This document shows positions 3,253-51,434 of a stretch of 64,000 nucleotides of DNA, in pieces. The first letter of the stretch is position 1, and each line of letters opens with the position of its first letter. The notes below the pieces were generated by a model that saw only the letters and a program-made list of their open reading frames with translations, made no database searches and had not been told where the DNA came from. Where the stretch lies: assembly GCF_021028975.2 (NCBI RefSeq), contig NC_059425.1:27156001-27220000 (forward strand), written 5' to 3'. The position numbers and the translations under genes were made by a program. The DNA is from Sphaerodactylus townsendi. Its lineage: Eukaryota.

Positions 3253-3621
<369 letters not shown>

Positions 3622-11984: not shown

Positions 11985-12180
11985 TCACAAGAAGGGGTTG
12001 CGGAGCATCTGCTTGGCGTGCTGAAGGATCCAGGTTCAATCCCCAGAATTGCCAGATAAAAGAGTCAGGTACTAAGTAAAAAATTGCTGCCGGAGACCCT
12101 GGAAAGCTGCTGCAAGCCAGAGTAGGCAATACTGACCCTGACAGATGAGTGGTCTGATTCAGCACGAGGCCGCTTCATCC
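11985..12180 (+). mobile_element. tRNA-derived SINE (Squam2-like)
   Basis: gagcatctgcttggcgtgctgaagg.tccaggttcaatcccc head and gagaccctgga.agctgctgc...ggtctgattcag tail; relatives at ~5355-5530, 18535-18680(-) and 63955-64000. Confidence 0.6.
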
Positions 12181-13582
12181 CCAGTTCAGTACAAGTGATC
12201 TTGGTCCTTTTAGCCTGGAAAGAATGAGTCTCGTCGATGCCTTTGACCAGGAATGGGAGTGTGTCTCAGTCGGCTGCGCGTGGAATGCATGGCATCATTT
12301 TTTGCAAAATCTATGAGGGCAGTTGCCAGAGCGTGGCATTTCATAGTTTCTGCAGGTCTTGCCTGCAGCCAGCAAGGGGCAGCAGAAGTCTGCTTAAGTT
12401 TTGGCCTGTTGATTTCTTGTGTTTACCTTTGCCATTTAAATAACACAGAAATTGCATTGATCTCAGGCACAATGTTAGTGGTTTGACACAACCAGGCAAA
12501 TCTCTAGTGCTCTCTAAGGAGAATGCTAAAGGAAGCAGTTATTGTTTCATTCCTCTGATGCAGCCGTTCCCAAAATTCTGTTAATTAAAAGCTCCCATGA
12601 GCCCCGAATAACTGTAGGAGGCTGCCTGCTGCATCTCTGCCTGATTATCACTCTGATGTTGCCTCTTTCCTATTAATTCCAACTCAGACCACATTATTAT
12701 TATTCAGTTACTTCTGAAACAGTGTGTGTTGTTTTAAGTGCTGGCAAATCACCTACAATTTATGGTGACCTGATTAACGTCCTCCAAGACATCCTATCGT
12801 TAACAGCCTTGCTCAGGTCTTGCAACCTGATGGCTGCGGTTTCCTAAGTGAGTTAATCTCATGCTGGGTCTTCCTGTTTTTCTGCTGCAACTTTTCCTAG
12901 CATTATTGTCATTTCTAGTTACTCTTGTCTTTTAGTGTAGCTGAAGTTGATCTAGAACTTGCTTATTTGTCTTTTTGACAGTCCACAGTATCCATAAAAC
13001 TCTCGTCTAACATCACATTTCACTTGAAACAGCACCGAAATAGAATTAACTTTCCTCAGAGGCTGCTCAGTGTATCTCTGCAAGAATCCCTGCACTGGCC
13101 TTCCCTCTTGCATATCCAGATCAGTGACTCATAAAGGGAGCAGCCAAGTCTTTCTTATTCTGACACAATTAAAAAACCGTTCTGTCTCTAATGTTGACTT
13201 AGAAAAACAACCGGGGTCAGCTGTTTGAAGTCTGAGATAGTGGTAGGTACAGGTGCTAATCTTTTATCAAATGGCGATTTACTAAGATAGTCAAATAGTG
13301 GCTTAGTCAGCTGGTGGGGAGGGACATCCCACCACTTGCTTTGTGGGGTTTTGGCTAATACTGCCAATGAGCAGGGGAAACCGGTCAGCCTATGCGGGGG
13401 TGGGGTATGTGTGTGTTTCTGCTGAACTATGTTTTCGAGGCAACTGTCACTCAAGCAATGAGGGAAGTTTTTGTTTTACCTGTATAACTATCACACTAAT
13501 CCTAGAAACCAGGCGCTGAACTCTGAGCTCTGTCAAAGCTTTAGGTCCCATCCACATGCCCACACTTTTAATTTCAAGCCTC

Positions 13583-14450
13583 ATGTGTGTTAAGTGCTGT
13601 GGTGACCCTATGACAGTGATGGCGAACCTTTTTGAGACCGAGTGCCCAAATTGCAACCCCAAACCCACTTATTTATCGCAAAGTGCCAACACGGCAATTT
13701 AACCTGAATACTGAGGTTTTAGTTTAGAAAAAACAATTGGCTCTGAGGCGCGCGTTACTCAGGAGTAAGCTTGGTGGTACTCAGTGGCTTTGCTTTGAAG
13801 CAACCGTGCAACTCTTCGAACATGTGAATCACGACCCTAGGAGGGTTTACTCAGAAGCAAGCCCCATCGCCAGCAACTGAGCTTACTCTCAGGTAAAGGA
13901 TCGCGCTTTAGTTCTTCCCATAAAAATTAGTGGGGTTTAACAGTGCTTCCTCCCCACACACACATGACGCCCTCTGTGTGCACATGCCCGCAGAGAGGGC
14001 TCTGAGTGCCACCTCTGGCACTCGTGCGATAGGTTCACCACCACTGCCCTATGAATCAATGTCCTCATTAACTGTCTTGTTCAGGTCTTGCAAACTGAGA
14101 CTTGCGGCTTTCTGTTTACAGCCAATCCATCTCATGTTCAATCTTCCTCTTTTCCCTCTGCCTTTGACTTTTCGGGGCATTATTGTCTTTTCCAGTACTC
14201 TGTTCACAATGTGACCAAGGTACAGTAGCCTCAATTTAGTCATTTTAGCTTCAAGGGACAGTTCAGCCTTAATTTGTTCTGGAACCCACTGGTTTGTCTT
14301 ATTGGCAGCCCATGGTATCCATAACATTCTCTTCCAACACCCCCGTTCAAAGAAATCTACTTTTCCCCCCTGTCAGCTTTCTTGACATTGTCCAACTTTC
14401 ACACCCATACATACTAATGAGGAATACTATGGCACAAATTAACTTGGTTG
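13583..14450 (-). mobile_element. RTE/BovB-like LINE 3' fragment, interrupted by a hAT element
   Basis: MLWIPWAANKTNQWV.EQIK.ELSLEAKMTKLRL.Y.GHI...LEKTIM...V.G...RGR..MRW; related remnant at ~12720-13025. Confidence 0.85.
13614..14046. mobile_element. hAT non-autonomous element (CAGTGATGGCGAACCT termini)
   Basis: TIRs cagtgatggcgaacct / aggttcaccaccactg; perfect TSD ccctatga. Confidence 0.88.
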
Positions 14451-15299
14451 CTAACGAGCAAATAGTAATTGGATTGGTTTTCCCCTTCGCAAAGTAGCAC
14501 GTGGAATGTCCTAGTTTACTCTAATTTCAGTGCTAGTCCATGCTAAAAGAAAGCTGGATGTTATTGGCTGCCAAGTCTTTCAGGGCCTCTCAGCAGCCTG
14601 GCTCTTCTGTCTTAAAGCAGGTTAGTAACCAATCACAAAAGGACTGGTCTCCTCTGAGGAGGAAATGGGCTAACCCAGTGGAAATAATCCAGATGGAGAC
14701 AGAAGTCTGGGAATGAGATAAAGAAGCAGTTCAGGTCAGGTGGAGATAAGCTGAAACAGAGGTAGGAAAGGGAGAGAAATCTCTAGCAAATTCGGTTTTT
14801 AAAAATTTGCTTGCTAAAAAAGTTTCAAATGGTTATTCTCCCTCATTTGCCATTTTTTACATGATGACGATAACACTATAAAAAAACCTTGTCTCCCTGA
14901 AAGATAGAAGCTCAATTGTGACCAAAGACTCCTCTTCTTCCTGTGGAGTGCTCCCCTATGGGCATGGCTCTTAGGAGTAGACCTATGGGCAGCGCATTCC
15001 ACAGGAAGAAGAGGGGTATTTGGTTCCAATTGAGCTTCTATCTTTTGGTGAGACAAGCATTATCAATTTTAATAGGGAAAAAGCAAGTTACAACACAATG
15101 GATTTCTCAAATTGTGACTTATCCTTGCCTTTAAGTGTCGTAACGTGACATAAGACTTATCACAGTTTTAAGTGTCCTGAAGTCATTAAATCTTCATGTT
15201 TCAGCAATTTCATTCACTTTTTGAGCTGGTTTAACTTTACTGCAGCTCAGGTACTAAAGAACCCTGGAAGGCAACTGAAAACAAAATAAATAGTCTTTT

Positions 15300-17066
15300 A
15301 AAATAAATTAAATCTTTTTATTAAGAGTAAGGTTAGCAGGGCCCATGCATGCTGTGTGCTTAAAGATTAAAGCAACCCCACACCCAGCTAACTTTTGTAC
15401 CAAAGAACAAGCCAAGTGCATGTGCGTACGCTTTCCATAGCCTGTTTTGCTCTTTTCTGAAGAATTTGTGCAAACATAAAAAGGTACACAGAGAAAAAAA
15501 AAACCCTTTCGTTAAAGATACTGGAATAGATGTAAGGTTCACAAATTGTGCGGAAGAAGGTTTTTTCCTATGGACTCTAGATACTGTGGGGCCAGGAACC
15601 TGAGTCTTTCTGCATACATGGGATGGGATAGGATAGGGGGAGCTTTACAGAAAAACAGGCCATTGATACTTAAACCTTTTCCCACTGGCTGCTTTTCCTG
15701 TGCAATCCTTCACCTGGTTTGAAACCTTCTCTCCACTTAAGTGGCTCTTCCATTGGAGGAAGATCCACTTAAGCTGGAGAAAACCCCTTTGGGCTGCAGA
15801 ATATTGCCCATTATGTGTGAAATTCTGCACGCAGGCACATGCGTATAACTCTGATTATGAGTGGACACCTCTTTCCTAATCTCGTACATATTTTTAAAAA
15901 GCGGTTTTGAAAAACTAGTAAGAAATGGACGCTGGCAGGCTTCCAAACAGGGTGAAGTCATTCTTATTATTACTGTAACCCTGGTACTATCAAGTAAGGC
16001 TGATTCACGTAGCTGTGTTCCTCATTTGGTAACTGCATTATCAAGCAGTAAGTTCCATGTGTGAATGTGCTGTGACAGACCCAACTCCACAGCAAGGGCT
16101 CCCGTTTTGCTTCAGATACTCTGCTTCCTGATTTACATACACAAGAGAATGAGATCGTAGGCTCCTAAGGTGGTACAATGGATTGTATTCAGTTTATTGG
16201 GGGGGGGGGGGAGGGGAGACTTCTGACTCTTCTTCGATGTTAAGAAAATTCCCTGCATTGAGCAAACTAACTCAATATGCAGTGAGCTGGACTAAAATCT
16301 TTGATGCCCTCAAAAAGCTTAATGTCTGTCCATGCCACAAGGAAGTGTCCCCATGCTCAAATGGGGTGCAAGCAGATGAGAGAAGTAAACAACAGTCTGT
16401 GCGTTCAGATGTTTCTGGTGCAGCCAAGCTGGATTTGGTGCTGCGCTTGCTGAACCATCAAGAAGGTGCTGTATTGTGCTTAAGAAATCTTAAGTTCTAG
16501 CTGCCGCCCCAGGACTGCAAAAACACAGGCGCTGCAACCTGCAAGGCAGGGTCCTTGTGTGTCACAAGCTTGGTTTGGGGGGCAGAATTAGGACTCCCAA
16601 CAACTGTGAAACAGCCCTTGAAATGTTCTGCATTTTACCACAAGATTCCATCAATGGATTTACTGTAGTCCAAACTTGGCCCCTGAAGAATAAAGATTAG
16701 AACCTGGAGAGCCTCTGTTGATGGCAGCAAATATGTCCAACACCCCGTAGCTCCTGTAACCAGTTATGTTCCCACTGTTGGGAGGCAAACTTTGTAACCT
16801 ATGGGGGTATAACGTTTCCATCCCATTCATTAAGCACAGTTTAAGGTTCGCAGGGACCATGGATAACACTTATCTTTGGAAAAAGTTCACAATGCAGTAG
16901 CTCTGAAAAGTGACTTGTGCCACTGAGGTTCAAATGATGAGTCCTGGCATACGCTGCTGCTGCCTCTAGGCTGTCGCTATGTCCTCCTTGCAAAGGAGTT
17001 TTTGATGGCTGTAGAGATCTTCTCTGTTCATGCCAAGAGTCCTGCGGTTGCCTGTTCATGGGCATG
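15300..17066 (-). other. CHRM1: Candidate spliced terminal (3' UTR) exon of CHRM1
   Basis: Strong minus-strand acceptor tttctcactgtgcttcttcatcttttctccccag|; TE-poor interval; AATAAA at 15317-15322 (minus) with U-rich downstream; partner donor tca|gtgagt at 19858/19857. Confidence 0.45.
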
Positions 17067-19879: not shown

Positions 19880-21424
19880 TCAGCAGTTCGACACACCACA
19901 AGCTCCCTTCTTAGGCATCTTCCGCCAATTATGCCGATTCCAGTGACACTGCAGTAGCATCCGGAAGGTGGTTCGGAAAGACCTGTTGCACAGAGCGTAG
20001 CACATTGGGTTGACAGTGCTGTTGACGTAGCAAAGCCAGTAGCCAAGTTTCCAGAGGCCTTGAGGGATGCATTCTTGGCAGAAAGTTGACACCAGCACCA
20101 TGATGTTGTAGGGTGTCCAGGTAATGATGAAGGCCAACAGGATGGCACTGAGTGTCCGAGCCGCCTTCCTCTCCTTCACCAGTGAAAGTGTCTTCCGCTT
20201 GGAGAGGTGGTTCCTTTGCCGCTGTTTCCTTGGGATCTGCCTTTTGGTCACTACCAGTGACTTATCCCTTAGCGGTATCATTGCTTTCTTGAGTCTCTTG
20301 TCCCCATCTGGAGGTTGTTTGGGAATTGTTACAAGACCCTTTTCTCCAACCCAGTCCCTCTTGGCTGCTGTTTTGGGATCTCGATACTCTGTTTCCCTTG
20401 GTGGCTGTATAACGGTGCTGATCATAGGGAGCCGAATTACCATTGAGCAAATAGAGTGAACTTCGAAGGGTTGTTCCTCTCCTTCAGATGAACTCAAGGA
20501 ATCAGCAGAAGCCTCCTCCACCTCCTCCTCTTCTGTGGTGTTCCAACTTCCATTGCTACTTCGATCTAAGGAGAAGCCTTTAGTTTTATGTCCAGGGAAA
20601 CAGCAAGCCTTCATGGGGACAATTGCCACATCTGAAGAGGTAGCAGGGTGTGACCGTTCTGAGCTGCTACTGCTGCCACCATTTTGGGTTGTTTTGGAAG
20701 CTACTCGTGGGTTACTCTTGAACTCCGAGGCCTGTAATCCAGAGAGCTCCTTTGCTCTCTTCTGGGTTTCTTGGTAGATCCTCCAGTAGAGGGCCACCAT
20801 GATGGTGACGGGGAGATAGAAGGCAGCAATGGCTGTTCCAAATGTGATGGTGGGCACTGAGAGGAACTGAATGTAGCAGTCATTCTCAGGGACAGTTCGC
20901 TTTCCAACCAAGTTCTGCCAGAATAAGATGGCAGGTGCCCACAAGACAAATGAGATAGCCCAAGCCAGGCCGATCATAACAGCTGCTCTCTTGGGCGTTC
21001 GCTTAGCTCTGTAGGTGAGGGGACGGGTAATGGAGAAGTAGCGGTCAAAGCAGATGATCAGGAGGTTCATAACAGAGGCATTGCTGGCCACATAGTCTAG
21101 GGCCAACCACAAGTCGCAGGCCACACTACCCATTGCCCATCGTCCCATGACAATGTATGTGGTATACAGATTCATTGAGATGGTCCCAATAATGAGGTCA
21201 GCACCAGCAAGGCTGAGCAGGTAGTAGTTGTTGACTGTCTTCAGCTCTCGATTGACCTTGAAGGAGACCATCACCAGCAGGTTTCCCACGACTGTGACCA
21301 ATGAGAGGATTCCTGTTGTTACAATAATCAAGACCATCTCCCAAAGGGAGTGGCCTGTTTCTGATGGTGTGCCTTGTACTTCCAGGGAGTCATTGTGTCC
21401 CAGTGGACTGTCTGATAGGTTCAT
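19880..21424 (-). CDS. CHRM1: Muscarinic acetylcholine receptor M1 (514 aa from the Kozak ATG)
   Basis: 7TM GPCR with [10 protein letters not shown] (orthosteric Asp), DRY, WTPYN and NPMCY; M1-specific i3 motifs [14 protein letters not shown] and [13 protein letters not shown]; start context gtcaccATGa; lies next to an SLC22A6-like gene as in human. Confidence 0.95.
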
Positions 21425-21579
21425 GGTGACTCTACGATTTCTCTCCTTGCTGCCTTCCAAGAAAGGGTCCCAGAATGATAGCCACATGAGTGTGTGGGGC
21501 CAGGTTCTTTCCTGATCGCTACTACTGATGTTGGACAGAGTGACAGTGCAGAAATTGTTCTTCAACCGAGGAGCACAAT
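21425..21579 (-). other. CHRM1: 5' UTR part of the CHRM1 coding exon
   Basis: Minus-strand acceptor ttgttttctctttttag|attgtg at 21580/21579; weak-context in-frame upstream ATG at 21487. Confidence 0.7.
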
Positions 21580-21599
21580 CTAAAAAGAGAAAACAAATC

Positions 21600-22300
21600 C
21601 TTTTTTGAGTTTCAGAAAATCTTTATTACACACTTCAACAAACAATAACAAAAAATTATCGAATCTATACTGACATAATTCCGACACAACAAATACAAAT
21701 TAGAAACAAATTAAAAAAACATTTCCTGCAGAAAAAAGAGAAAGATGCATAACAAGAAATAATTATTAACTTTCATGTCTACTCTCAGACGCATAAGCCT
21801 GAACTTGGTATATACTCCCCACATTCTAAGAACATAAGAACAAGCCAGCTGGATCAGACCAGAGTCCATCTAGTCCAGCTCTCTGTTACTCGCAGTGGCC
21901 CACCAGGTGCCATTGGGAGCTCACAAGCAGGATGTGAAAGCAATGGCCTTCTGCGGCTGTTGCTCCGTAGCACCTGGACTGTTAAGGCATTTGCAATCTC
22001 AGATCAAAGAGGATCAAGATTGGTAGCAATAAATCGACTTCTCCATAAATTCTGTTATATTTGTTATGACAGTTTCCTTAAATCAAGACTTTAACACACA
22101 ATTTACATATTTAGATTATTAATTTATGTTATCCTAGTATTATTTTACACATTTGTTCCTAGTCTTCTGAATGTGTACTCTACGCCTGTTAAACATATCT
22201 TAAATTGTTTCGATATATAAGCAATGAAAGGGGACTAGGTCACATTAAATTTTTCCAGGGAGTCTTCTTTCAGTAAGCAAGTCAGCTTGTCTGAAGTAAG
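21600..22300 (-). mobile_element. L1/Tx1-like 3' end, interrupted by the CR1 fragment
   Basis: Minus-strand AATAAA plus short A-tail near 21600-21627; degenerate ORF2 C-terminus (SDKLTCLLKEDSLEKF...SPFIAYI) at ~22200-22300. Confidence 0.55.
21827..22050 (-). mobile_element. CR1 3'-end fragment of the same subfamily as 18802-19706
   Basis: Near-identical to 18803-19030 (taagaacataagaacaagccagctggatcagacc...). Confidence 0.93.
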
Positions 22301-25300: not shown

Positions 25301-25831
25301 TTCTATCCAACACAAATGCTCAAAAAGTGGCCAGGAAGGTCTTCCTGAGATGAGGAAAGCAAGACCCGCATTCTGTAAAATCATAACCAAGGAATGAAAT
25401 CTGTCCTACCTGGATATCCTGTGTACAGGGCAAAGGACTCGGCCTGACTTCTGCCATGCCGCTGCCACCCTTCCCCACAGCCTCCTTCACTCTGGTGTTG
25501 GTTTTCTTTTTGGAGAAGTGGAGAAGTCAGGATAATGGTAGTGAGGGAGGGAGCTGCCAGCTGTCCCTTTCCAGCGTCTACGGCCGTTTCTGTTCTCTGT
25601 GGCTTACCCTTGTGTCAATATTAATATTAATGTTTTGCATGTTCAAACAATGCCTTGGAGCACCTTGGAGGCACCTTGAAAGAGATCTTAGTGGAGGTTT
25701 ATTTTCCCAGGTCTTGGTCAGGGAATGGAATCATGCTTAGCAGGAAGCCACGCCTCCTCATCCCAGAAGCTTTTGGGTGGACAGAGGCGTATCAGGGGGA
25801 AATGGTGCCCAGGTGCTTCTGTGTGATCGTG

Positions 25832-26081
25832 CAGGTGTCCAACTCGCGGCCCTCCAGATATTATGGACTGCAGTTCCCATCATCCCCTGCCAGCATCATG
25901 CTGCATCATGCTGGCAGGGGATGATGGGAACTGTAGTCCATAATATCTGGAGGGCCGCGAGTTGGACACCTGCTGATGATGGGAGTCCATAATATCTGGA
26001 GGGCCGTGAGTTTAGTGTAGGGCCGTGTAGTGTAGGGCCGTGTAGTCTATAATATCTGGAGGGCCGTGAGTTTGACACCTG
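25832..26081. mobile_element. Palindromic hAT MITE with reiterated right arm
   Basis: Full hairpin 25832-25972 followed by two further right-arm copies ending gtttgacacctg. Confidence 0.8.
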
Positions 26082-26387
26082 TTACTGCCTGTCCCTGATT
26101 TTTATGGCAGCCGATTCATATTTTGGGAACTGCCCATAAAGATCAGAAACCTTATTCTGGGCAGAGATGGTGTATTGTTTTCAAAAAGGCAGACTAACCA
26201 TGTGTGCCTTAGATGGAATGGCATTTCCATTCAGGAAGAGGGGAGACAGCTATTTCTGCTGATTCTCCTTACCATTTAAGGTTGCCAACTCTTGTTTGGA
26301 AAATTTCTGGAGAATTTGGGGACGGTACTTGGGGACAACAGAGTTTGGGGAGGGAAGAGATTTCAGTGGAGACGTGATGCTGTAGAA

Positions 26388-26573
26388 CAGTGGTTCTCAA
26401 CCTTCCTAATGCCGTGACCCTTTAATACAGTTCCTCATGTTGTGGTGACCCCCAACCCTAACATTTATCCATTTTACAGATGGAGAACACTGATGCAGAG
26501 ACTCTTAGGTGATCCCTGTGAAAGGGTCGTTCGACCCCCAAAGGGGTCCCGGCCCACAGGTTGAGAACCACTG
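26388..26573. mobile_element. SPIN (URR1-like) hAT MITE, 186 bp
   Basis: CAGTGGTTCTCAACCTTCCTAATGCCGTGACCCTTTAATACAGTTCCTCATGTTGTGGTGACCCCCAACC...GGTTGAGAACCACTG; perfect TSD ctgtagaa. Confidence 0.9.
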
Positions 26574-28127
26574 CTGTAGAATCTGCCCTCTGAAGCTACC
26601 TTTTCCTCCAGGGGAACTAACTGAGGTCTGGAGATCCACTATAATTCCTGGAGAATTCCAGGCCCCACCTGCAGGTTGGCAACCTTATTGCCACAGCATG
26701 GACTCAATTTGCCTCCTGTCCTGTTCTGAGCAAACAGTAAAATGAAGGGGGGCATAGTAATGGTAATGACTTTGCTACCCTCTGGAAAAGGAAACCACTG
26801 TGTCACCCCATGTTCAACAAACTGTTAGTTAGAGGATAGAATGAACACATCTCTGTGGCGCAGCAGTGACAGGGCTATCCTGGAATGAAGACGTGCAGGT
26901 TCAAATTCATGCTGTAGAAGTAAGGATGGAGCAGGGACAGAATGGGATTTTAAAACTGCCCAGATGCAAGTGGAACCAAGCAGTCCCCTGGGTAAGTCAT
27001 GTAAAGCACATGGTCGCAAGTCACCTGACGGTTGCTGCTGGTGGGCCTGGCCCCAATGAGATCTCCCTCAAAACCTCAAGCAGTCTTGGAAAGTTCCCCT
27101 CTTCCCCTCCCCTTTCCTTTTATTGGCAAAAGTCAAAACTTGGGCTAGCAATATTGTGGGGGCGCCTAGCAATGGCCATCAACAGCATTCATTTCTTTAA
27201 AGACACTGGATTGGAAAATTCCAGGAAATTTGGTGGTGGTGGTGGTGGTGGGGCTACAGAAGGCAAGGTTGGGGGGGGGGGAACCTCAGTTGAGTATAAT
27301 GCCAGAGTCCACCCTTTAAAGCTGCCATTCCTACAGGGAAATGGATCTCTGTAGTCTAATTCTGGGGTATCTCCATGTCCCACCTGGAGCCTAGCAACCC
27401 TACTACAGGCACTGCTTCTATTATGGGGGAGGGGGCTAATTTTAAAAATGTCAGACTTTTCTGCAAACCAGGGTTTTTTTTAGGTTTGCAGAAAGATCTG
27501 CATTGTCTGTCCATGGCTCCATACTTTGGTTCGAAGTGTCCAGAAATTTGGCCACTGAGAATTGGATACACTGATTCATTAAAACACTTATGTGCTGAAA
27601 TACTTATTTATGATACTCCTTTTCCCCCCAGACCCGTTCTAAATTTTTCATATTTTGAAAAGAGGAGCATAATTTCTCTCCATTAACCCTCTCAAAACAG
27701 ACGATCGCTTATAAACATCTCCGAATTGGGGAGAGGAACGTGTTGCCAAGAGAGGAGCCCCGATGGTGTGGTTTGCGGATCGGGCTGGGAGTGGAGTGCA
27801 GCCGAGGAGGCTCCCTTTTAGATGTCTGTCCCTTGGTGGAAAATATTTATATTAGCTCTGATGAATGGAGATCTGGATCTCATCATGGAGGCAACTGGGG
27901 GGCGGGGGGGGGCGGGGAGCAGCTGCCCTGCCATCATCTCATTCCCTCCATACATCTTGGTGTGGGTGAAGCCAGGAAGCTGGAAGGTTCTAAGAAAGGC
28001 TTAATATCCTGTTGCTCTGCAGGAAGCCAGCAAGCGATCACTAGGGACCCAAGCCAAAGAGAGGCCTCTCATTTGGAAATATGAGGGGCTACCTCAGGTG
28101 CCAGCACAAGAGGTGGAGGGATCGGAC

Positions 28128-29580: not shown

Positions 29581-30834
29581 ATGTACTGGTTTTGTTGGGA
29601 TTTTGCAAGTGTCACAACTCAATCATAAAAGGGTTAACTGTTAGTATGTAAACAAGTTGTTGAAGTCACTGTTTATGACCTGGTCTATTGTATAGCTATT
29701 AATCAGTCAGATAGCCATTGCTCACATGTAGTGAGCACGGATATCTGAAGTTACAAAGTTAACTCTGTCTCTTTGTTTGAGCAGACACGACACTGGAGAG
29801 GAGACACTAAGTAGAGACATCATGTGAGACAGCAGATAGGTACCAAGATGTAACCAAACATACGGCAATGTAGATGTGTAACAGGAAAGAAAGGAGGAAA
29901 GGGAAAGAAAGGAGGAAGGGGAAAGTGAGGATGATGTATGAGTCTGAAATTGTGTGCATCGAGGAATGCTGCTGTAAATTTCGTTGTCCGTGCACAATGA
30001 CAATAAAATGCTTATGCTTATGCTTATTGAGCCTCTTTGGTCCTCCGGTAAAAAAATCACCTGGCTGTCCCGGGCCCCAACCACATGCAATTGAAAAGAG
30101 CCAGGACTTTTTCTGCCCCAGCTCCAACCTGGTGAAACTCTCTGTCAGCTGACACAAGGGCCCCGTGGGATCTAAAATAGTTCTGCAGGACCTGTAAGAG
30201 GGAGATGTTCCATCAGGCCTTCAGTTGTGGCCACTCATATGTCCCGATGCCATCTGGTGACCTCCCTGTACCATCTGCACCAACTGTAATGCTAATGCTA
30301 TTTGGCATCACCCCCTTGATTTATTGCCCATGCTTGTCTCATTAAAAGGGGGATCTGTGTCAAGCTGGACTGGGTTGTTTATGGGCTAAAAGTTTTTGCC
30401 ATCTTGGATTTTAATGTTACATTTAAAAAAATGTGTATGCCACTCTGAGCCCAACCTCAGTTGGGGAGGGTGGGATATAAATTTAATAAAAGTAAAATAA
30501 AATACATTCTTCAGGGATCAGAAAATAGGAATAATCTATCACATCCCTGGTGAGCTTTCACCTCTCCCTAGACTCCTCCCCCTCAGGCTCCACCCCCAAA
30601 TCTCCAGGAATTTCCCAGGATGCAGTTGGTCACTGTCATCGAAAGGCAGAAGCCGAGAAAACAAGTGTGTTGCCTAGTAGATTGGGGTGGTAGAGGTGGA
30701 GCATAATGAAAGAGGCCAAGAATAGCTCTTAGTGGCTAGAAATGTGGAGCAAACAGCCAAAGCCAAGCAGAAAATGGCCAATCCTCCCCTTGATTCTGGC
30801 CCATCCTCATGAAATTCTGCTCCTTCCCCTAGAC

Positions 30835-30966
30835 CACAGGTGTCAAACGCGTGGCCCTCCAGATGTTATGGACTACAGTTCCCATCAACCCCTGCCAGAA
30901 TGCTGGCAGGGGATGTTGGGAACTGTAGTCCATAACATCTGGAGGGCCGCGTGTTTGACACCTATG
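30835..30966. mobile_element. Palindromic hAT MITE
   Basis: cacaggtgtcaaac / gtttgacacctatg; perfect TSD ccctagac; degenerate sibling at 31233-31358. Confidence 0.9.
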
Positions 30967-31359
30967 CCCTAGACAGAGGTAGTGTTAGACATTCTGGAAT
31001 CCTGGTTAAAAGTCCAGAATAGAGTCCCAAAAATTACTGCCCCCTGCCCCCCTCTCACTGGGGACAAGCAAGGAATGTCATTCCTTCTGTGTGAGGTGGG
31101 TAAGAGTTAAAGAAAGCTGGGGGCCTGAGCCCCAGTTGGAGCAGGTGCAAACGGTGCCAGGATTCTGATCGTTTTCTTTCCCCTCTCCTTCAAAAGACAG
31201 GACTGAGGACAGTTGGGGACCCAAATGCAGGGCACAGGTGTCAAGCGGCCCTCCGGATGTTATGGACTACAGTTCCCATCATCCCCTGCCAGCATGATGC
31301 AGGGGATGATGGGAACTGTAGTCCATAACATCGGAGGGCTGCAAGTTTCACACCTATGC

Positions 31360-40445: not shown

Positions 40446-42019
40446 ATATGCATATGCATAGATCAAGAAAAGGATCCTAAGCTTTGTATCTTTAAGGCAT
40501 TTAGTGACAGGACTCTTGTTAGAATCAGCAGCTGTAAGGAGAGAACCAGAGTAGGTAGTCATGGAATGGGAACCAACATAGTGTAGTCAGTGGTTAAAAC
40601 CAGGGAGACTCTAATCTGGAGAACTGGGTTTGATTCCCCACTCCTCCACATGACCAACTGACTCTAACCTAGCGAACCAGGTTTGTTTCTTCACTTCTCT
40701 GCATGAAACCTACTGGGTGATCTTGGGCCAGTCATAGTTCTCTCCAAACTCTCTGAGCCCCACCAATCTCACAAGGTATCTGTTGTCGGGAGAGGAAGGG
40801 AAAGGAGTTTGTAAACCACTTTGAGATTCCTTAAGATTGAGAAAAGGGGTGGGGTATAAATCCAAGCTCCTCTTCTTCTTCATCCTACCAAGTTGGCAGC
40901 CCAAAGGCACCTGGTGGGCCACTGCGAGTAGCAGAGTGCTGGACTAGATGGACTCTGGCCTGATCCAGCAGGCTTGTTCTTATGTTTATCCTGGGACAAG
41001 GAGTTCCACCATTTAATTATATGCTCTGTGAAGAATGGAATGGAAAGGCTGAAAGGGCTCCTGGAAGGGGTGGGACCTTGCACCGGTGTATTTGCCTTCT
41101 CTGGGACACTTATTCCGATGGAGGAGGCAGATGCATTGGTGACTGCGCATCCCGCAGCCCCAGTGCCACAAAAACCGGAGGTTCAGGCTGTGGCAGAGCA
41201 GCGCTGGTATCCTGCTCAGATATCAGCACTGGGGTGGTGGACTGGGGCATTTCTGGGAATGGAGCTGACATTAGTTCAGGGTCAGCCTATAGACTGTGAT
41301 TTGATTTAATAGTAAAAGACTGTTGGGGATGGACCAGGGCTACTGTCTTGGGTATGGGGAAGAGGTTCAGCAGTGGTGTAGAGCCAAGGGGGCAGGGTGG
41401 TGGTGTGCGATGCATCAGGTGTGTGCCAGTGCGGGGGCATGGTGGGGGCGTAGTGTGGCGGGTGGGGCTGCAGGGCGCACGTGTGCCCCAGTCGCAGTTC
41501 TTCCTTGCTCCGACCTTGAGATTCCGTCACCCCGTCTTCTTCTCATCTGCCTGTTAGCCTGGTTTGGGGTGGGGAGAAAGACAGGCACTGAAATTATGGT
41601 TGCCATCTCCAGTGGGAAGTTTCTGGAGTTTTTGCAGGAGGGAGCCTGGGAAGGAGAGAGTTTTGGAAGGGGGAGAGTCATAGAGTCCACCCTGGCCATC
41701 AAATGAAATTCTGGGAGCTCTCCAGGCCCCAGCCAGAGGTTGGCAATCCTAACTGAGGCTAATGACAGTTTAGAATTAGGATTTCTATCAGAGAAATAGT
41801 GCTAGGAGAAAGAATTAAACCCCCATCCGAACTGGGTCTCTCCACAGCTGTATTTTGATGGAAAAAATATCTCAGAAATTATTTTGATCCTCATTCAGAG
41901 AATGAATAGATTCTTCTTCTGTAACTTTGGTGGGCTTTCCTTTCAAGTCCTTAATAATTAAGACATGTTTATCAATGACTATTGGTTATAATGCTAAATG
42001 GACCCTCCATATTCTAAGG

Positions 42020-42154
42020 CACAGGTGTCAAATTTGCGGCCCTCCAGATGTTATGGACTACAGTTCCCATAATCCTCTGCCAGCATGATGCTGGCAGGGG
42101 ATTATGGGAACACTAGTCCATAACATCTGGAGGGCCACGAATTTGACACCTATG
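42020..42154. mobile_element. Palindromic hAT MITE
   Basis: Perfect TSD ttctaagg. Confidence 0.9.
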
Positions 42155-42719
42155 TTCTAAGGTAATCTACTCCTGAGTACCAGCCATGAGGAAGAAGATG
42201 GCCTTTGTGATATGCTCGTGAGATTCCGGAGCCATCCGGCTGGTTTCTGCTGGAAACAGAAATGGGTTGTAGGGCTGCAGGCCTGATGTGTTCATACACT
42301 GTTACGTTCCTTGATCTGGAGACTCATCCATTCTCGGATTGTGCCCAGAGTCAGCTACTGTCTCTCTGCTTATGTTTATTTGATTTCTCTTCAACTGAAA
42401 GCCTTAATTTAAAACAGAAGGCGGTTGTTTACAATCCCAAGAAGGCTCTATCTAGGAACTTGAAATGTGTGCACAAGAGACAGATGATTTTTTGGGGTGG
42501 AGGGAGAGAGAAAGGTTTGGTCTTGCTCAAGATCTCTGATGGGGGTTCACCCACTGAATTTTGACTGGGCAGGAGTCTGGTCAGCATTTGGGAGGAGCCC
42601 TTTTTAAAAATGTATCAATCCTGTCAGAGCAATCCCACATCCTATCCTCCATCACCACTTCCTGATGGTGGGACTTTGGGATTTACCACTGTCACCACGT
42701 TAGATTTATTGCGCTTGTT

Positions 42720-47410: not shown

Positions 47411-47628
47411 TCAGTATCACTCACTGTGTCCTGTGGTAGCTGCTTGGGATCTCAGGCAGAGAAAACTATTTCCCGACAGCTGGTACCCAAGATCCTTTCA
47501 CAGTAGAAGGCCATAAGGAGCGTTTCTCCGTGGCAACTCCTGTTTTGACTTTCTCTGCTATTGATCCCACAAGCATCCCCTTTCTAACAAAACAAAAGAA
47601 GTTTAACAATTTCTCTGACCTTTTAGAC

Positions 47629-47814
47629 CAGTGGTTCTCAACCTTCTTAATCCCGTGACCCTTTAATGCAGTTCCTCATGTTGTGGTGACCCCCAACCCT
47701 AACATTTATCCATTTTACAGATGGAGAACACTAGTGCAGAGAGTATTAGGTGACCCCTGTGAAAGGGTCATTCAACCCCCAAAGGGGTCCCGACTCCCAG
47801 GTTGAGAACCACTG
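47629..47814. mobile_element. SPIN (URR1-like) hAT MITE, second copy
   Basis: Same 186-bp structure; perfect TSD ttttagac. Confidence 0.9.
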
Positions 47815-48592
47815 TTTTAGACCCTATTTGGTGTAGTGGTTAGAATTTCATTCTAGGATCAAGGAGATCCAGGTTTGAATACCCACGCTGCCTCACAGGG
47901 TTGCTGGCAGACTTGGGCCCAGTCACATCCTCTCAGCTTGATTTGAGCATAATTCTTCTGCATGTCTGCAGCTTTCTAGTTGCCACATGGGTTCATTCTC
48001 TTACAGTCATAACATTACTGAGTTTTCCACATCATTGGCAACATCACAGCACCACGACCTTTTTTGTGTGTGGATGTGCTATATAGATATACTAATAGAG
48101 GGGACTATGCCCCTTCTCCCCCCCCCCCCAATACAATTTACTGACTGTACAGCCGCTTTCCTGCCATGTTGATTTGGAATGTAGTGACAAAGACATTCTT
48201 TAGCATTGTTTCAAATGGCAGTTCTCAGGATTGTACTAAAGGTGCTTCTTGTATGTACAAAGTTACTACCCACAGTGCAAATTGATTTGGTGACTGGCTG
48301 AAGAATTGCCATGATGGTCGTTCTCTGATCAGTTGCAGCACCAAAAAATGTGCATGCGTGAGAATTGCCATTTGACTTCACCCAAAGAAGAAGTGATTAG
48401 CAGAGGTGGGATCCAACCAGTTCTCACCACTTCTCTAGAAGTGGTTACTAATTTTTTCTGAGTGCCAAGAAGGGGTCACTAAAGCAACCTCCCTGTCCAA
48501 TAGGGACTGGAGGTGCGTGTGTGTGGCGGCCCCACTGTTTGAATCCCACCACCATCGGAACCTGTTATTAAAATTTTTGGATCCCACCACTG

Positions 48593-48810: not shown

Positions 48811-50985
48811 ACAAGTGCCCCCCAAATATCAGAATAAGAAGACATTTTTGAGGATCTATAGAAGGGTTATTGAGAGGCACAAAAGCACATCTTATATCAA
48901 TATATTGCTATTAGAAGTGTGTTTATTTAAAACACACACACGTGTGTAAGCCACTATAAGAAAAAAAAAGCATTCTTTCCATGACCTGGTGGGAGAAAAT
49001 GGAATTTAAGAAGTGGAGGGACCTCAGCAGGGCACAGATCTAATCACACCTGGTAGTTGCCAGATTGCTGGCATTGTTAAAGCCCTTTAAATTGCTGTTA
49101 TATTGATATTGCTGTGGTTGTTGTTATATCAATATTGTAGCCCCTTTTCAAAAATAATCCCCCCCAACCTGTAAAAGAGACAAAGCAGTTCCCTAGACCA
49201 AACTCTGCTGAAGAAGGGGACCATGTCCTAGAACTGATATTCTTCCTCCCCACCATACTTCCTGCCACTGCTACTGCCACAGGAGGAGAGAGAGACTTTT
49301 TATTTTGATATTCCTTGGTATTTGAATATTCCTGTACAAATGCTTGAAGTTCTAAAAAGTCTTCCTGGTCATCAGGGAGGGCAGAAGTAGAGTGTGGGAG
49401 GCAGGGGTGTATCTGCCAGAGGGACCTTGGACGCCACCCATTAGCTCATGAGGGGGGCGCAAAATTGCCCCCACACCTCTCACATGGAGAGGTGCCCTCG
49501 CCTGGTGCTTCCCCCTCCACTGGGAGCTGCAGAGCCGGGTGCCCCTTGGCCTGGCTCCAGTTTTTCAGAAAAATCTTAAACCTAAAAAAAATGGTTAAAA
49601 AAACCATGAATGAGCCCCTTTTATTATGACTTCCATCTGTCTGAGACCCTGGTGAGTTGCTGCCTGTCTGAGTAAGCAGAACTGACCTTGATAGATCAAT
49701 GAAGCTGACGCAGAATAAGAAAGTACCACGAATTTTGCATGTGCTTTTGTCTTCCTCCAGGATGAAGAGTTTCCAGTTGGGACAGTTAATTATGGCTCTG
49801 TTGTTTGTGTATGAACTTAATCATTGTTAAGGCAGCAAACCTGGGTTCGCTTAAACACAGGGCCAAGCATTTGATGGGACGATCTGCAGACCCCCAAGGC
49901 CAGCTCCCTACATGTTGTGCAGAGGAGATCAGGGGGAACATCCCACCTTTCTAAACAGAAGCAGCGTTTACTTTGACATTCATAGAAACAGCTGCGGCAT
50001 TTCAACATTTCTCCTTTGTCCGGAGTAAAGACTGTTTGTGAGAACTCCACGGATCCTGGGCCTAGATTAATGGGGTGTGCTTGCCACGGGACACAGCTGT
50101 GCCTTTGGCAGTGGCCTCAGCATTTTCGAAGAACTTCAACTGCTGAGCTGCTCTGAGGCAAACAATGGAGACCGGAGTGTTTTATTTGCTGCCGGGCTTT
50201 TGCTGTTCGCTTCCTGTTGGCAGGGCTATATGTTCTGTTTCTGGGCAGGAGCCTGTTTGGAATACAGAAGCTGGCATTCTGAACGTCTGCTCTCGCTCCT
50301 CCGCCTTTCTAACCAAGCAATTTTGGTAGCCTCCTTGGCCGTTAGGAAAAAAATTGGGTTTGTTTTGTTGTGGCTTTATAGAAGACCTTGTGCATGCTAC
50401 AGAACTTTCTCCTGTGGCCATGAGATTTAGCCAATAGGCCAAGGCAGCATTGAAGATTTGAGCGTGTGTGTGTGTGTGTGTGGTATGCATAACTCTGTTT
50501 TTCAGCTCACATGATTTATATATTAGGCAGACCTGTTTCTCTTTAACTTAGCAGTTTTGTGTAGAGCCCATCCTTGCCAATATAGCTAAATTGGTATGGA
50601 TAAGTCCCAACTATGTGTGATGGAGTTCTGTAAACAGGATCTTCTGTATTTTTTTGTTTTTGAAAACAGTTTGCAGGAAGCAGGGGAGAGCAGGTGGTCC
50701 AATTACATGAGATCTTGGAATCTAAGCAGGGTCATTGCTTGGATGGGTGACCACCAAGGAAGGCTCTGCAGAAGGCTGCAATGGCAAACCACCTCTGGTT
50801 TTCACTTGCCTTGAAAGCCCTTTGCTGGGGTCTCCAAAAGGTGGTTGTGATTTGATGCCATTATGAAGGGAGCACAGAGGAATTTGGATTAAGGTTGTGA
50901 GACAATTTTTTTAACCTTGTCCCTCCATGCACCAGGTTTCAGTCAACCTCTCCTCCTTTGCCTTACTTCAAAAGTTGCTATATGC

Positions 50986-51118
50986 CAGTGGTGGCGAACC
51001 TTTGGCACTCCAGATGTTATGGACTACAATTCCCATCAGCCCCAATTGGCCATGCTGGAAGGGGCTGATGGGAATTGTAGTCCATAACATCTGGAGTGCC
51101 AAAGGTTCGCCACCACGG
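50986..51118. mobile_element. Palindromic hAT MITE, CAGTGGTGGCGAACC termini
   Basis: Perfect TSD ctatatgc; same core as the 30835 copy. Confidence 0.9.
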
Positions 51119-51434
51119 CTATATGCCCTATAAGACAGACACCATTATAGGTAAACAGCAGCTCTGGTATGTGTATAAGAGTTCACCTGGAGAAAATGAC
51201 TGATTTGGAGGATGAACTCTATGACATTGTACGTTACTGAGGTTCCTGATCTTTCCAGGATCCACCCACAAATCTCCAGGAGTTTCCCAGTCTGGATTTG
51301 GTAATCCTAGCCTGTAAAGCTGAATTCAGGAAATACATTTCAATTTTTCTCTCCTTATAATGCAGTTCTGCACTGCAGCCACTAGGGGCACAGGGAAGGC
51401 AAAGCAGAGTGAATAATAATAGCTCAGTCTCACA

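What the first reader, a model, noticed from the sequence alone, without database searches (positions are those of the whole stretch)
26388..26573. SPIN MITEs whose interior looks like a captured MIR/CORE-SINE fragment
Seen: two 186-bp copies (26388-26573 and 47629-47814) with perfect 8-bp nnnTAnnn TSDs. Their ends match SPIN/URR1, and both carry the same ~45-bp filler aacatttatccattttacagatggagaacact(ga/ag)tgcagaga. Known: SPIN is a horizontally transferred hAT found in several mammals, squamates, frog and a triatomine bug. The filler resembles the MIR core ATCCCCATTTTACAGATGAGGAAACTGAGGCACAGAGA. Inference: the filler is a lineage barcode. If the same filler and breakpoints occur in an unrelated host (from memory the opossum and Rhodnius SPIN MITEs are of similar size; unverified), the non-autonomous element itself crossed species carrying amniote SINE DNA, which would help polarise the transfer.
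Basis: partly seen in the sequence, partly recalled or inferred. Interest (0 to 1): 0.7.

Follow-up and report, generated by a model that had tools for sequence, protein, structure and literature searches.

The report
Mini-transposon carrying an old SINE scrap
This is a 186-base jumping element with thousands of copies in a likely gecko genome; its middle likely came from an old host repeat picked up during DNA repair, and every other species found carrying it looks like a close relative, so it likely spread by ordinary inheritance rather than by jumping between distant hosts.

Summary
In detail: two 186-bp copies with perfect 8-bp target duplications and SPIN termini. They belong to a SPIN (hAT) MITE subfamily of about 12,000-17,000 units (6,184 exact core hits). 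The 44-bp interior is not in the genome's long SPIN copies. It aligns with the CORE block of published Ther1/MIR (28 of 33 bases, exact 14-mer) and with a genomic MIR copy. The match is good as a targeted test but marginal against a large library, and no donor locus was found. Cross-species transfer of the MITE is not supported. Of 6 coded organisms laid, 3 carry the filler; all 3 also share this genome's other SPIN subfamilies, and the 2 tested share its squamate SINE. In the other 3, the SPIN arms run into different interiors. Several independent subfamilies here also measure 185-189 bp, so similar size is no sign of transfer. Opossum and Rhodnius could not be tested by name. Side result: the element carries its own target site. 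A nested insertion shows that the site is used, and 416 matching tandem junctions mark 122-bp arrays that sit toward chromosome ends. Verdict: a new member of a known kind.

The parts
26388..26573 (-). SPIN MITE copy 1, 186 bp (the transposase sense of the parent element is the minus strand)
26380..26387 (.). left 8-bp target site duplication of copy 1
26574..26581 (.). right 8-bp target site duplication of copy 1
26388..26457 (-). SPIN 3' arm (70 bp) with 16-bp terminal inverted repeat at 26388-26403
   Evidence: matches the 3' end of long SPIN copies L070 and L074; repeat as printed in PMC3014272
26458..26501 (-). 44-bp filler, likely a Ther1/MIR CORE fragment; its first 8 bases match native SPIN at 6 of 8, so the left break is at 26457 or 26465
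26502..26573 (-). SPIN 5' arm (72 bp) with terminal inverted repeat at 26558-26573
   Evidence: matches the 5' end of L073, L074 and L076
26502..26509 (+). internal SPIN target site (element 115-122, GTCTTAGG in most copies; the first base is changed in this copy)
   Evidence: duplicated around a nested copy in L216; forms the junction of the tandem arrays
47629..47814 (-). SPIN MITE copy 2, 186 bp; filler at 47699-47742
47621..47628 (.). left 8-bp target site duplication of copy 2
47815..47822 (.). right 8-bp target site duplication of copy 2

Best explanation
The two copies belong to an abundant non-autonomous SPIN (hAT) subfamily whose 44-base interior was likely copied from an old Ther1/MIR SINE during repair of an excision gap in an ancestor of this lizard lineage, and which was then likely spread by SPIN transposase and inherited vertically. 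Shown: SPIN arms, target duplications, copy number, absence of the filler from long SPIN copies, the MIR-like alignment, and the distribution among six laid organisms. Inferred: gap repair with a template switch at short imperfect homology (6 of 8 bases on the left, about 1 base on the right), a local donor, and a length near 186 bp that suits transposition. The element also holds a SPIN target site at 115-122. Self-insertion there is shown once, and it likely seeded the 122-bp tandem arrays, which likely grew by recombination in distal chromosome regions.
For: Filler not in SPIN: chance-level scores against five long copies that together cover both ends and the ORF, and no BLAST hit where sister subfamilies' interiors map on SPIN, one inverted at 97%. 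MIR match: by eye, 28 of 33 bases with an exact 14-mer against Ther1 and 29 of 33 against MIR1_AMi in supplement 2 of PMC7983390. A hand score of 35 gives E 3e-6 for one consensus. Against genomic MIR-like copy L175 the score is 30 with a shuffle maximum of 26, p=0.002. Full-CORE copies exist locally: 9 of 30 motif loci are not MITEs, and their upstream flanks match the window's SINE, p=0.002. The base next to the core is C as in the reptile consensuses, not T as in the mammalian ones (one site). Age equals the resident SPIN burst: left-arm non-CpG divergence 0.026-0.031 in two chromosome-wide samples against 0.029 for filler-less SPIN. Organisms H, A and B have contigs spanning the filler and its junctions, plus loose ends that match other G000 SPIN subfamilies. 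H and B hold the adjacent Squam3B-like SINE. In C, contigs join across the filler and 22-83 contigs leave the arms into other sequence. In D (125 contigs) and J the arms also run into other interiors, and J has next to none of the SINE.
Against: No donor locus was found: 47 of 399 candidate hits were read and all were broken MITE copies. The MIR match is weak on a large search space (E about 0.02 for 2 Mb, about 1 for 100 Mb). Outside the selected motif, the filler did not score above shuffles against nine decayed genomic copies (p=0.12 and 0.29). L175 was reached through a motif-selected query, so that test is partly circular. The abundant Squam3 SINEs lack this block, so the donor must be a rarer old copy. 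Organisms are coded, so the kinship of A, B and H rests on shared repeats, not on orthologous flanks, which had no cover. A distal C1 sample gave a higher divergence, 0.045.
Confidence: 0.75

Rival explanations
1. The MITE itself was transferred between unrelated hosts with its SINE filler, so the filler marks the donor.
For: SPIN is a repeatedly transferred element (PMC3157835 and PMC11614815, passages). No donor locus was found in G000.
Against: All 3 filler-positive organisms share other G000 SPIN subfamilies, and 2 of 2 tested share its squamate SINE. The organism without that SINE (J) has other interiors. The filler subfamily is no older than the resident SPINs. Size near 186 bp recurs independently. 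The one diagnostic base favours a reptile-type donor.
Confidence: 0.06
2. The MITE is local and vertical, but its filler is not from MIR: it is unrelated genomic DNA or repair synthesis that resembles the CORE block by chance.
For: E about 1 on a 100-Mb space; non-significant flank tests against decayed copies; no donor found. Another subfamily has a mostly unmapped AT-rich interior (L035, L050).
Against: An exact 14-mer (chance 6e-5 for one consensus) extends to 28-29 of 33 bases. The filler aligns along nearly its whole length (33 matches over bases 4-44, with gaps) with L175.
Confidence: 0.12
3. The filler subfamily moved horizontally only among squamates, together with the rest of the SPIN subfamilies.
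For: Organism D holds the same SINE yet shows another interior, so the filler is patchy among SINE carriers. The kinship of A, B and H is not fixed by unique DNA.
Against: Joint transfer of several subfamilies plus the tandem junction (seen in B and H) is less simple than descent from one invaded ancestor.
Confidence: 0.07

Closest known systems
Non-autonomous SPIN families, e.g. SPIN_NA11_AC (273 bp) and SPIN_NA1_AC (745 bp) of Anolis (PMC3014272, passages and Table 1) and copperhead SPIN MITEs (PMC3157835, passages)
   Same: Same 16-bp terminal repeat, 8-bp target with central TA, high copy number, divergence of a few per cent (about 6% reported in copperhead).
   Different: 186 bp with a non-SPIN 44-bp interior. 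Their sequences could not be seen, so identity with a named Repbase or Dfam family is untested.
hobo_AC non-autonomous hAT families of Anolis that carry SINE, CR1 and Penelope fragments as filler DNA (PMC3014272, passages)
   Same: A hAT element takes up genomic DNA holding an older retroelement fragment and multiplies it.
   Different: The cargo here is only 44 bp, the carrier is SPIN, and the copy number is above ten thousand.
Ther1/MIR CORE-SINEs, MIR1_AMi, MIR_Testu and tuaMIRa (PMC7983390, part 1 of the text, passages and supplement 2)
   Same: The filler matches the CORE block over 33 bases.
   Different: No tRNA head or LINE tail; it moves as DNA. The squamate derivative Squam3 has deleted this very block.
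SINE-derived satellites of squamates, sSats (PMC10702118, abstract and discussion)
   Same: Tandem units made of part of a mobile element with one longer terminal unit, biased to chromosome ends.
   Different: The source here is a DNA transposon, and the unit boundary coincides with a transposase target site inside the element.

Membership tests
SPIN (hAT) MITE | 16-bp SPIN terminal inverted repeats | tested here: met
SPIN (hAT) MITE | 8-bp target duplication with central TA | tested here: met
   2 of 2 window copies; 28 of 31 best hits within one mismatch; about 23 of 40 position-ordered copies, with TA at 4-5 in 28 of 40 (one empty row discounted)
SPIN (hAT) MITE | arms derived from an autonomous hAT element in the same genome | tested here: met
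   arms match L070, L073 and L074; L070 holds a 602-aa ORF with a weak PF05699 hit below the curated cut-off. The name SPIN rests on the printed terminal repeat.
SPIN (hAT) MITE | short, non-coding, high copy | tested here: met
   186 bp, 6,184 exact core hits
named SPIN_NA or URR1 family | identity to a Repbase or Dfam consensus | not testable with these tools
   primary papers not held; supplements gave no sequence
Ther1/MIR-derived fragment | alignment to the CORE block | tested here: met
   28-29 of 33 bases by eye; p=0.002 against L175; marginal on a large library
Ther1/MIR-derived fragment | donor locus with MIR continuing past both junctions | tested here: inconclusive
   0 of 47 candidates read, out of 399 hits
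horizontally transferred non-autonomous element | same interior and junctions in an unrelated host | tested here: not met

The most novel reading that the evidence does not exclude
Probability: 0.06. Interest if true: 0.7.

Novelty: new member of a known kind. Interest (0 to 1): 0.25.

Why it matters
As it stands, this is a lineage marker. The filler and its junctions define one clade's SPIN invasion and can date it, and more than ten thousand copies of a CORE-SINE block were spread again by a DNA transposon. The self-target site gives a concrete and testable route from a MITE to distal tandem arrays, and the repeated arrival at 185-189 bp suggests a preferred length for SPIN transposition. 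Had the MITE crossed to an unrelated host, the filler would give the direction of a SPIN transfer, which near-identical SPIN sequences cannot do.

Tried and rejected
Filler as part of autonomous SPIN: rejected. Tandem arrays as the donor: rejected, they are made of element positions 1-122. Squam3 as the donor: rejected, the block is deleted in it. Donor hunt by a pattern excluding the right arm: 399 hits; 48 fetched, 47 readable, none a donor; the one-mismatch hits were never listed. Filler core in metagenome and viral contigs: 0 and 0; in paper full text: 0. Zero depth over the filler in C and in D and J is recorded here only: contigs drop rare variants and a hole proves nothing. Word shares of the unlaid organisms E, F, G and I are no evidence. 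Flanks of L021 had no cover in any run, so orthology was not tested. Domestication of the open ORF in L070: not supported, private changes are 4 synonymous and 15 non-synonymous (ratio 1.02), two acidic residues that look catalytic are changed, and the 5' end is missing. In-place microhomology with the target duplication as the cause of the tandem junction: the TA registers differ by one base. A gecko SPIN literature search returned only adhesion papers, and another returned none. No earlier scan note matched the sequence.

Full report
Observation. Both copies lie where stated, are 186 bp, differ at 13 sites and have perfect 8-bp target duplications with TA at positions 4-5. Their 16-bp terminal repeat is the one printed for SPIN_AC in PMC3014272 Table 1 (passages seen). 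Copy 1 lies about 4.8 kb upstream of a 7-transmembrane receptor ORF on the minus strand (19880-21622). Nothing points to a function there. The window's SINEs match the published Squam3B consensus by eye, a subfamily reported for Gekkota and Lacertoidea (PMC7983390), so the host is a lizard, likely a gecko.

The family. A 21-nt filler core has 6,184 exact hits in G000 against 0 for the control. With 3-5% divergence per site this implies roughly 12,000-17,000 units, tandem units included. Target duplications within one mismatch were found for 28 of 31 best hits and about 23 of 40 copies taken in order of position. A pattern for the SPIN arm not followed by the filler gave 1,052 hits, so this is the largest SPIN subfamily here by these counts. 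Among the first 30 of those hits, 26 had both ends, and 10 of the 26 measure 185-189 bp although they belong to several different interiors. A length near 186 bp therefore arose several times in this one genome and says nothing about transfer.

Is the filler SPIN? No. Long copies L070, L072, L073, L074 and L084 overlap to cover both ends and a 602-aa hAT ORF. The 44-bp filler scores 17-20 against them, as shuffles do. By contrast, four of six sister copies tested have interiors that map on SPIN over 21-39 bases, one of them inverted at 97% identity, and two map only over 13-14 bases. This is the pattern expected from template switching during gap repair (established knowledge; gap repair as the source of non-autonomous elements is stated in PMC3014272).

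Is it MIR? Likely. By eye against supplement 2 of PMC7983390, the minus strand of the filler matches Ther1 at 28 of 33 bases with an exact 14-mer, and alligator MIR1_AMi at 29 of 33. A conservative hand score of 35 gives E 3e-6 for one consensus, 0.02 for 2 Mb and about 1 for 100 Mb. The base beside the core is C in the filler and in the reptile consensuses but T in the mammalian ones; this is a single site. Squam3 lacks the block, so the donor was an older full-CORE copy. Such copies exist in G000: 9 of 30 loci with a core motif are not MITEs and their upstream flanks resemble the window's SINE (p=0.002). Locus L175 aligns with the filler along nearly its whole length (score 30, shuffle maximum 26), though it was reached through a motif-selected query. 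Against the reading, the filler's flanks did not beat shuffles on the nine decayed copies (p=0.12 and 0.29), and no donor turned up among 47 candidates read of 399 hits.

Did the MITE cross species? The run index returned 24 runs from 10 coded organisms, with a best share of 0.75. Six organisms were laid. H, A and B have contigs spanning the filler and its junctions. Their loose ends match other SPIN subfamilies of G000, B and H show the tandem junction, and both hold the Squam3B-like SINE next to the MITE in L021. In C, contigs join across the filler and the arms run into other sequence. D holds the SINE but its arm runs into another interior, and J has abundant SPIN with native continuations and next to none of the SINE. 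The filler thus follows kinship, not SPIN. The subfamily's age equals that of the resident SPINs (left arm, non-CpG: 0.031 and 0.026 against 0.029; a distal sample gave 0.045), so it does not look like an older import. The primary SPIN papers were not held. The Anolis supplement, which may hold SPIN_NA consensuses, could not be read, and the Rhodnius paper's supplement had no such sequence. The subfamily may already have a library name.

Tandem arrays. Clustered filler hits are head-to-tail runs of element positions 1-122 that end in one full copy, up to 17 units; 3 of 5 arrays printed are flanked by one target duplication. The junction has 416 exact hits. On C1 all 15 junction loci lie within 20 Mb of an end, against 9 of 27 variant monomer loci (p=1e-5) and 13 of 100 filler-less SPINs in the span compared (p=6e-7). 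Locus L216 shows why the junction falls at 122: an inverted inner copy sits between two copies of positions 115-122, so this internal site is a real SPIN target. No same-direction nest with its right-hand remainder was found. Array loci carry different right-arm variants and locus-specific changes shared by their units (by eye). I infer seeding by self-insertion and then growth and spread by recombination in distal regions. The interiors of long arrays are noisy and may hold assembly errors. The picture parallels the SINE-derived satellites of squamates (PMC10702118, abstract and discussion). One search listing for MITE self-insertion arrays showed no paper with that term, which is a thin check.

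Verdict. This is a real, abundant SPIN MITE subfamily with a captured MIR-like interior, likely captured locally and inherited vertically. Capture of SINE fragments by lizard hAT elements is already described for hobo_AC. It is a new member of a known kind, interest 0.25. The transfer reading keeps about 6%.

Noticed in passing
L061, L062, L063, L066 (G000:C1 12.94, 17.38, 6.73, 7.44 Mb); L216 (G000:C4:23796.7-23797.0 kb): 122-bp tandem arrays of this MITE, biased to chromosome ends, with a junction set by an internal SPIN target site; one nested insertion shows that the site is used.
   Followed up: yes
L070:2246-4054: SPIN transposase copy with an open 602-aa frame, no 5' end and two changed acidic residues; private changes look neutral (ratio 1.02).
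   Followed up: partly
L031-L060: Several independent SPIN MITE subfamilies of 185-189 and 198 bp, one with an inverted internal SPIN piece as its interior; this suggests a preferred length.
   Followed up: partly
L048:1449-2705; L135: Filler MITEs interrupted by an insertion with an AGAACATA-type repeat tail, likely a LINE 3' end (family name not tested).
   Followed up: no
L023:1501-3052: A 1.36-kb local duplication that includes one MITE with the same target duplication; the second copy is noisy and may be an assembly artefact.
   Followed up: no
window 19880-21622 (-): Single-exon 7-transmembrane receptor ORF (PF00001); it looks like a muscarinic receptor from recall. PHD-finger-like and anion-transporter-like exons lie near 3.5 kb and 59.7 kb (recalled, no Pfam hit).
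   Followed up: partly
window 3255-3411, 25831-26088, 30824-30973, 42013-42165, 50980-51124: A palindromic MITE family with one core and several different ends, as earlier scan notes describe for this genome.
   Followed up: no
L175:~1490-1600: An unusually well kept full-CORE MIR-like copy, possibly conserved.
   Followed up: no
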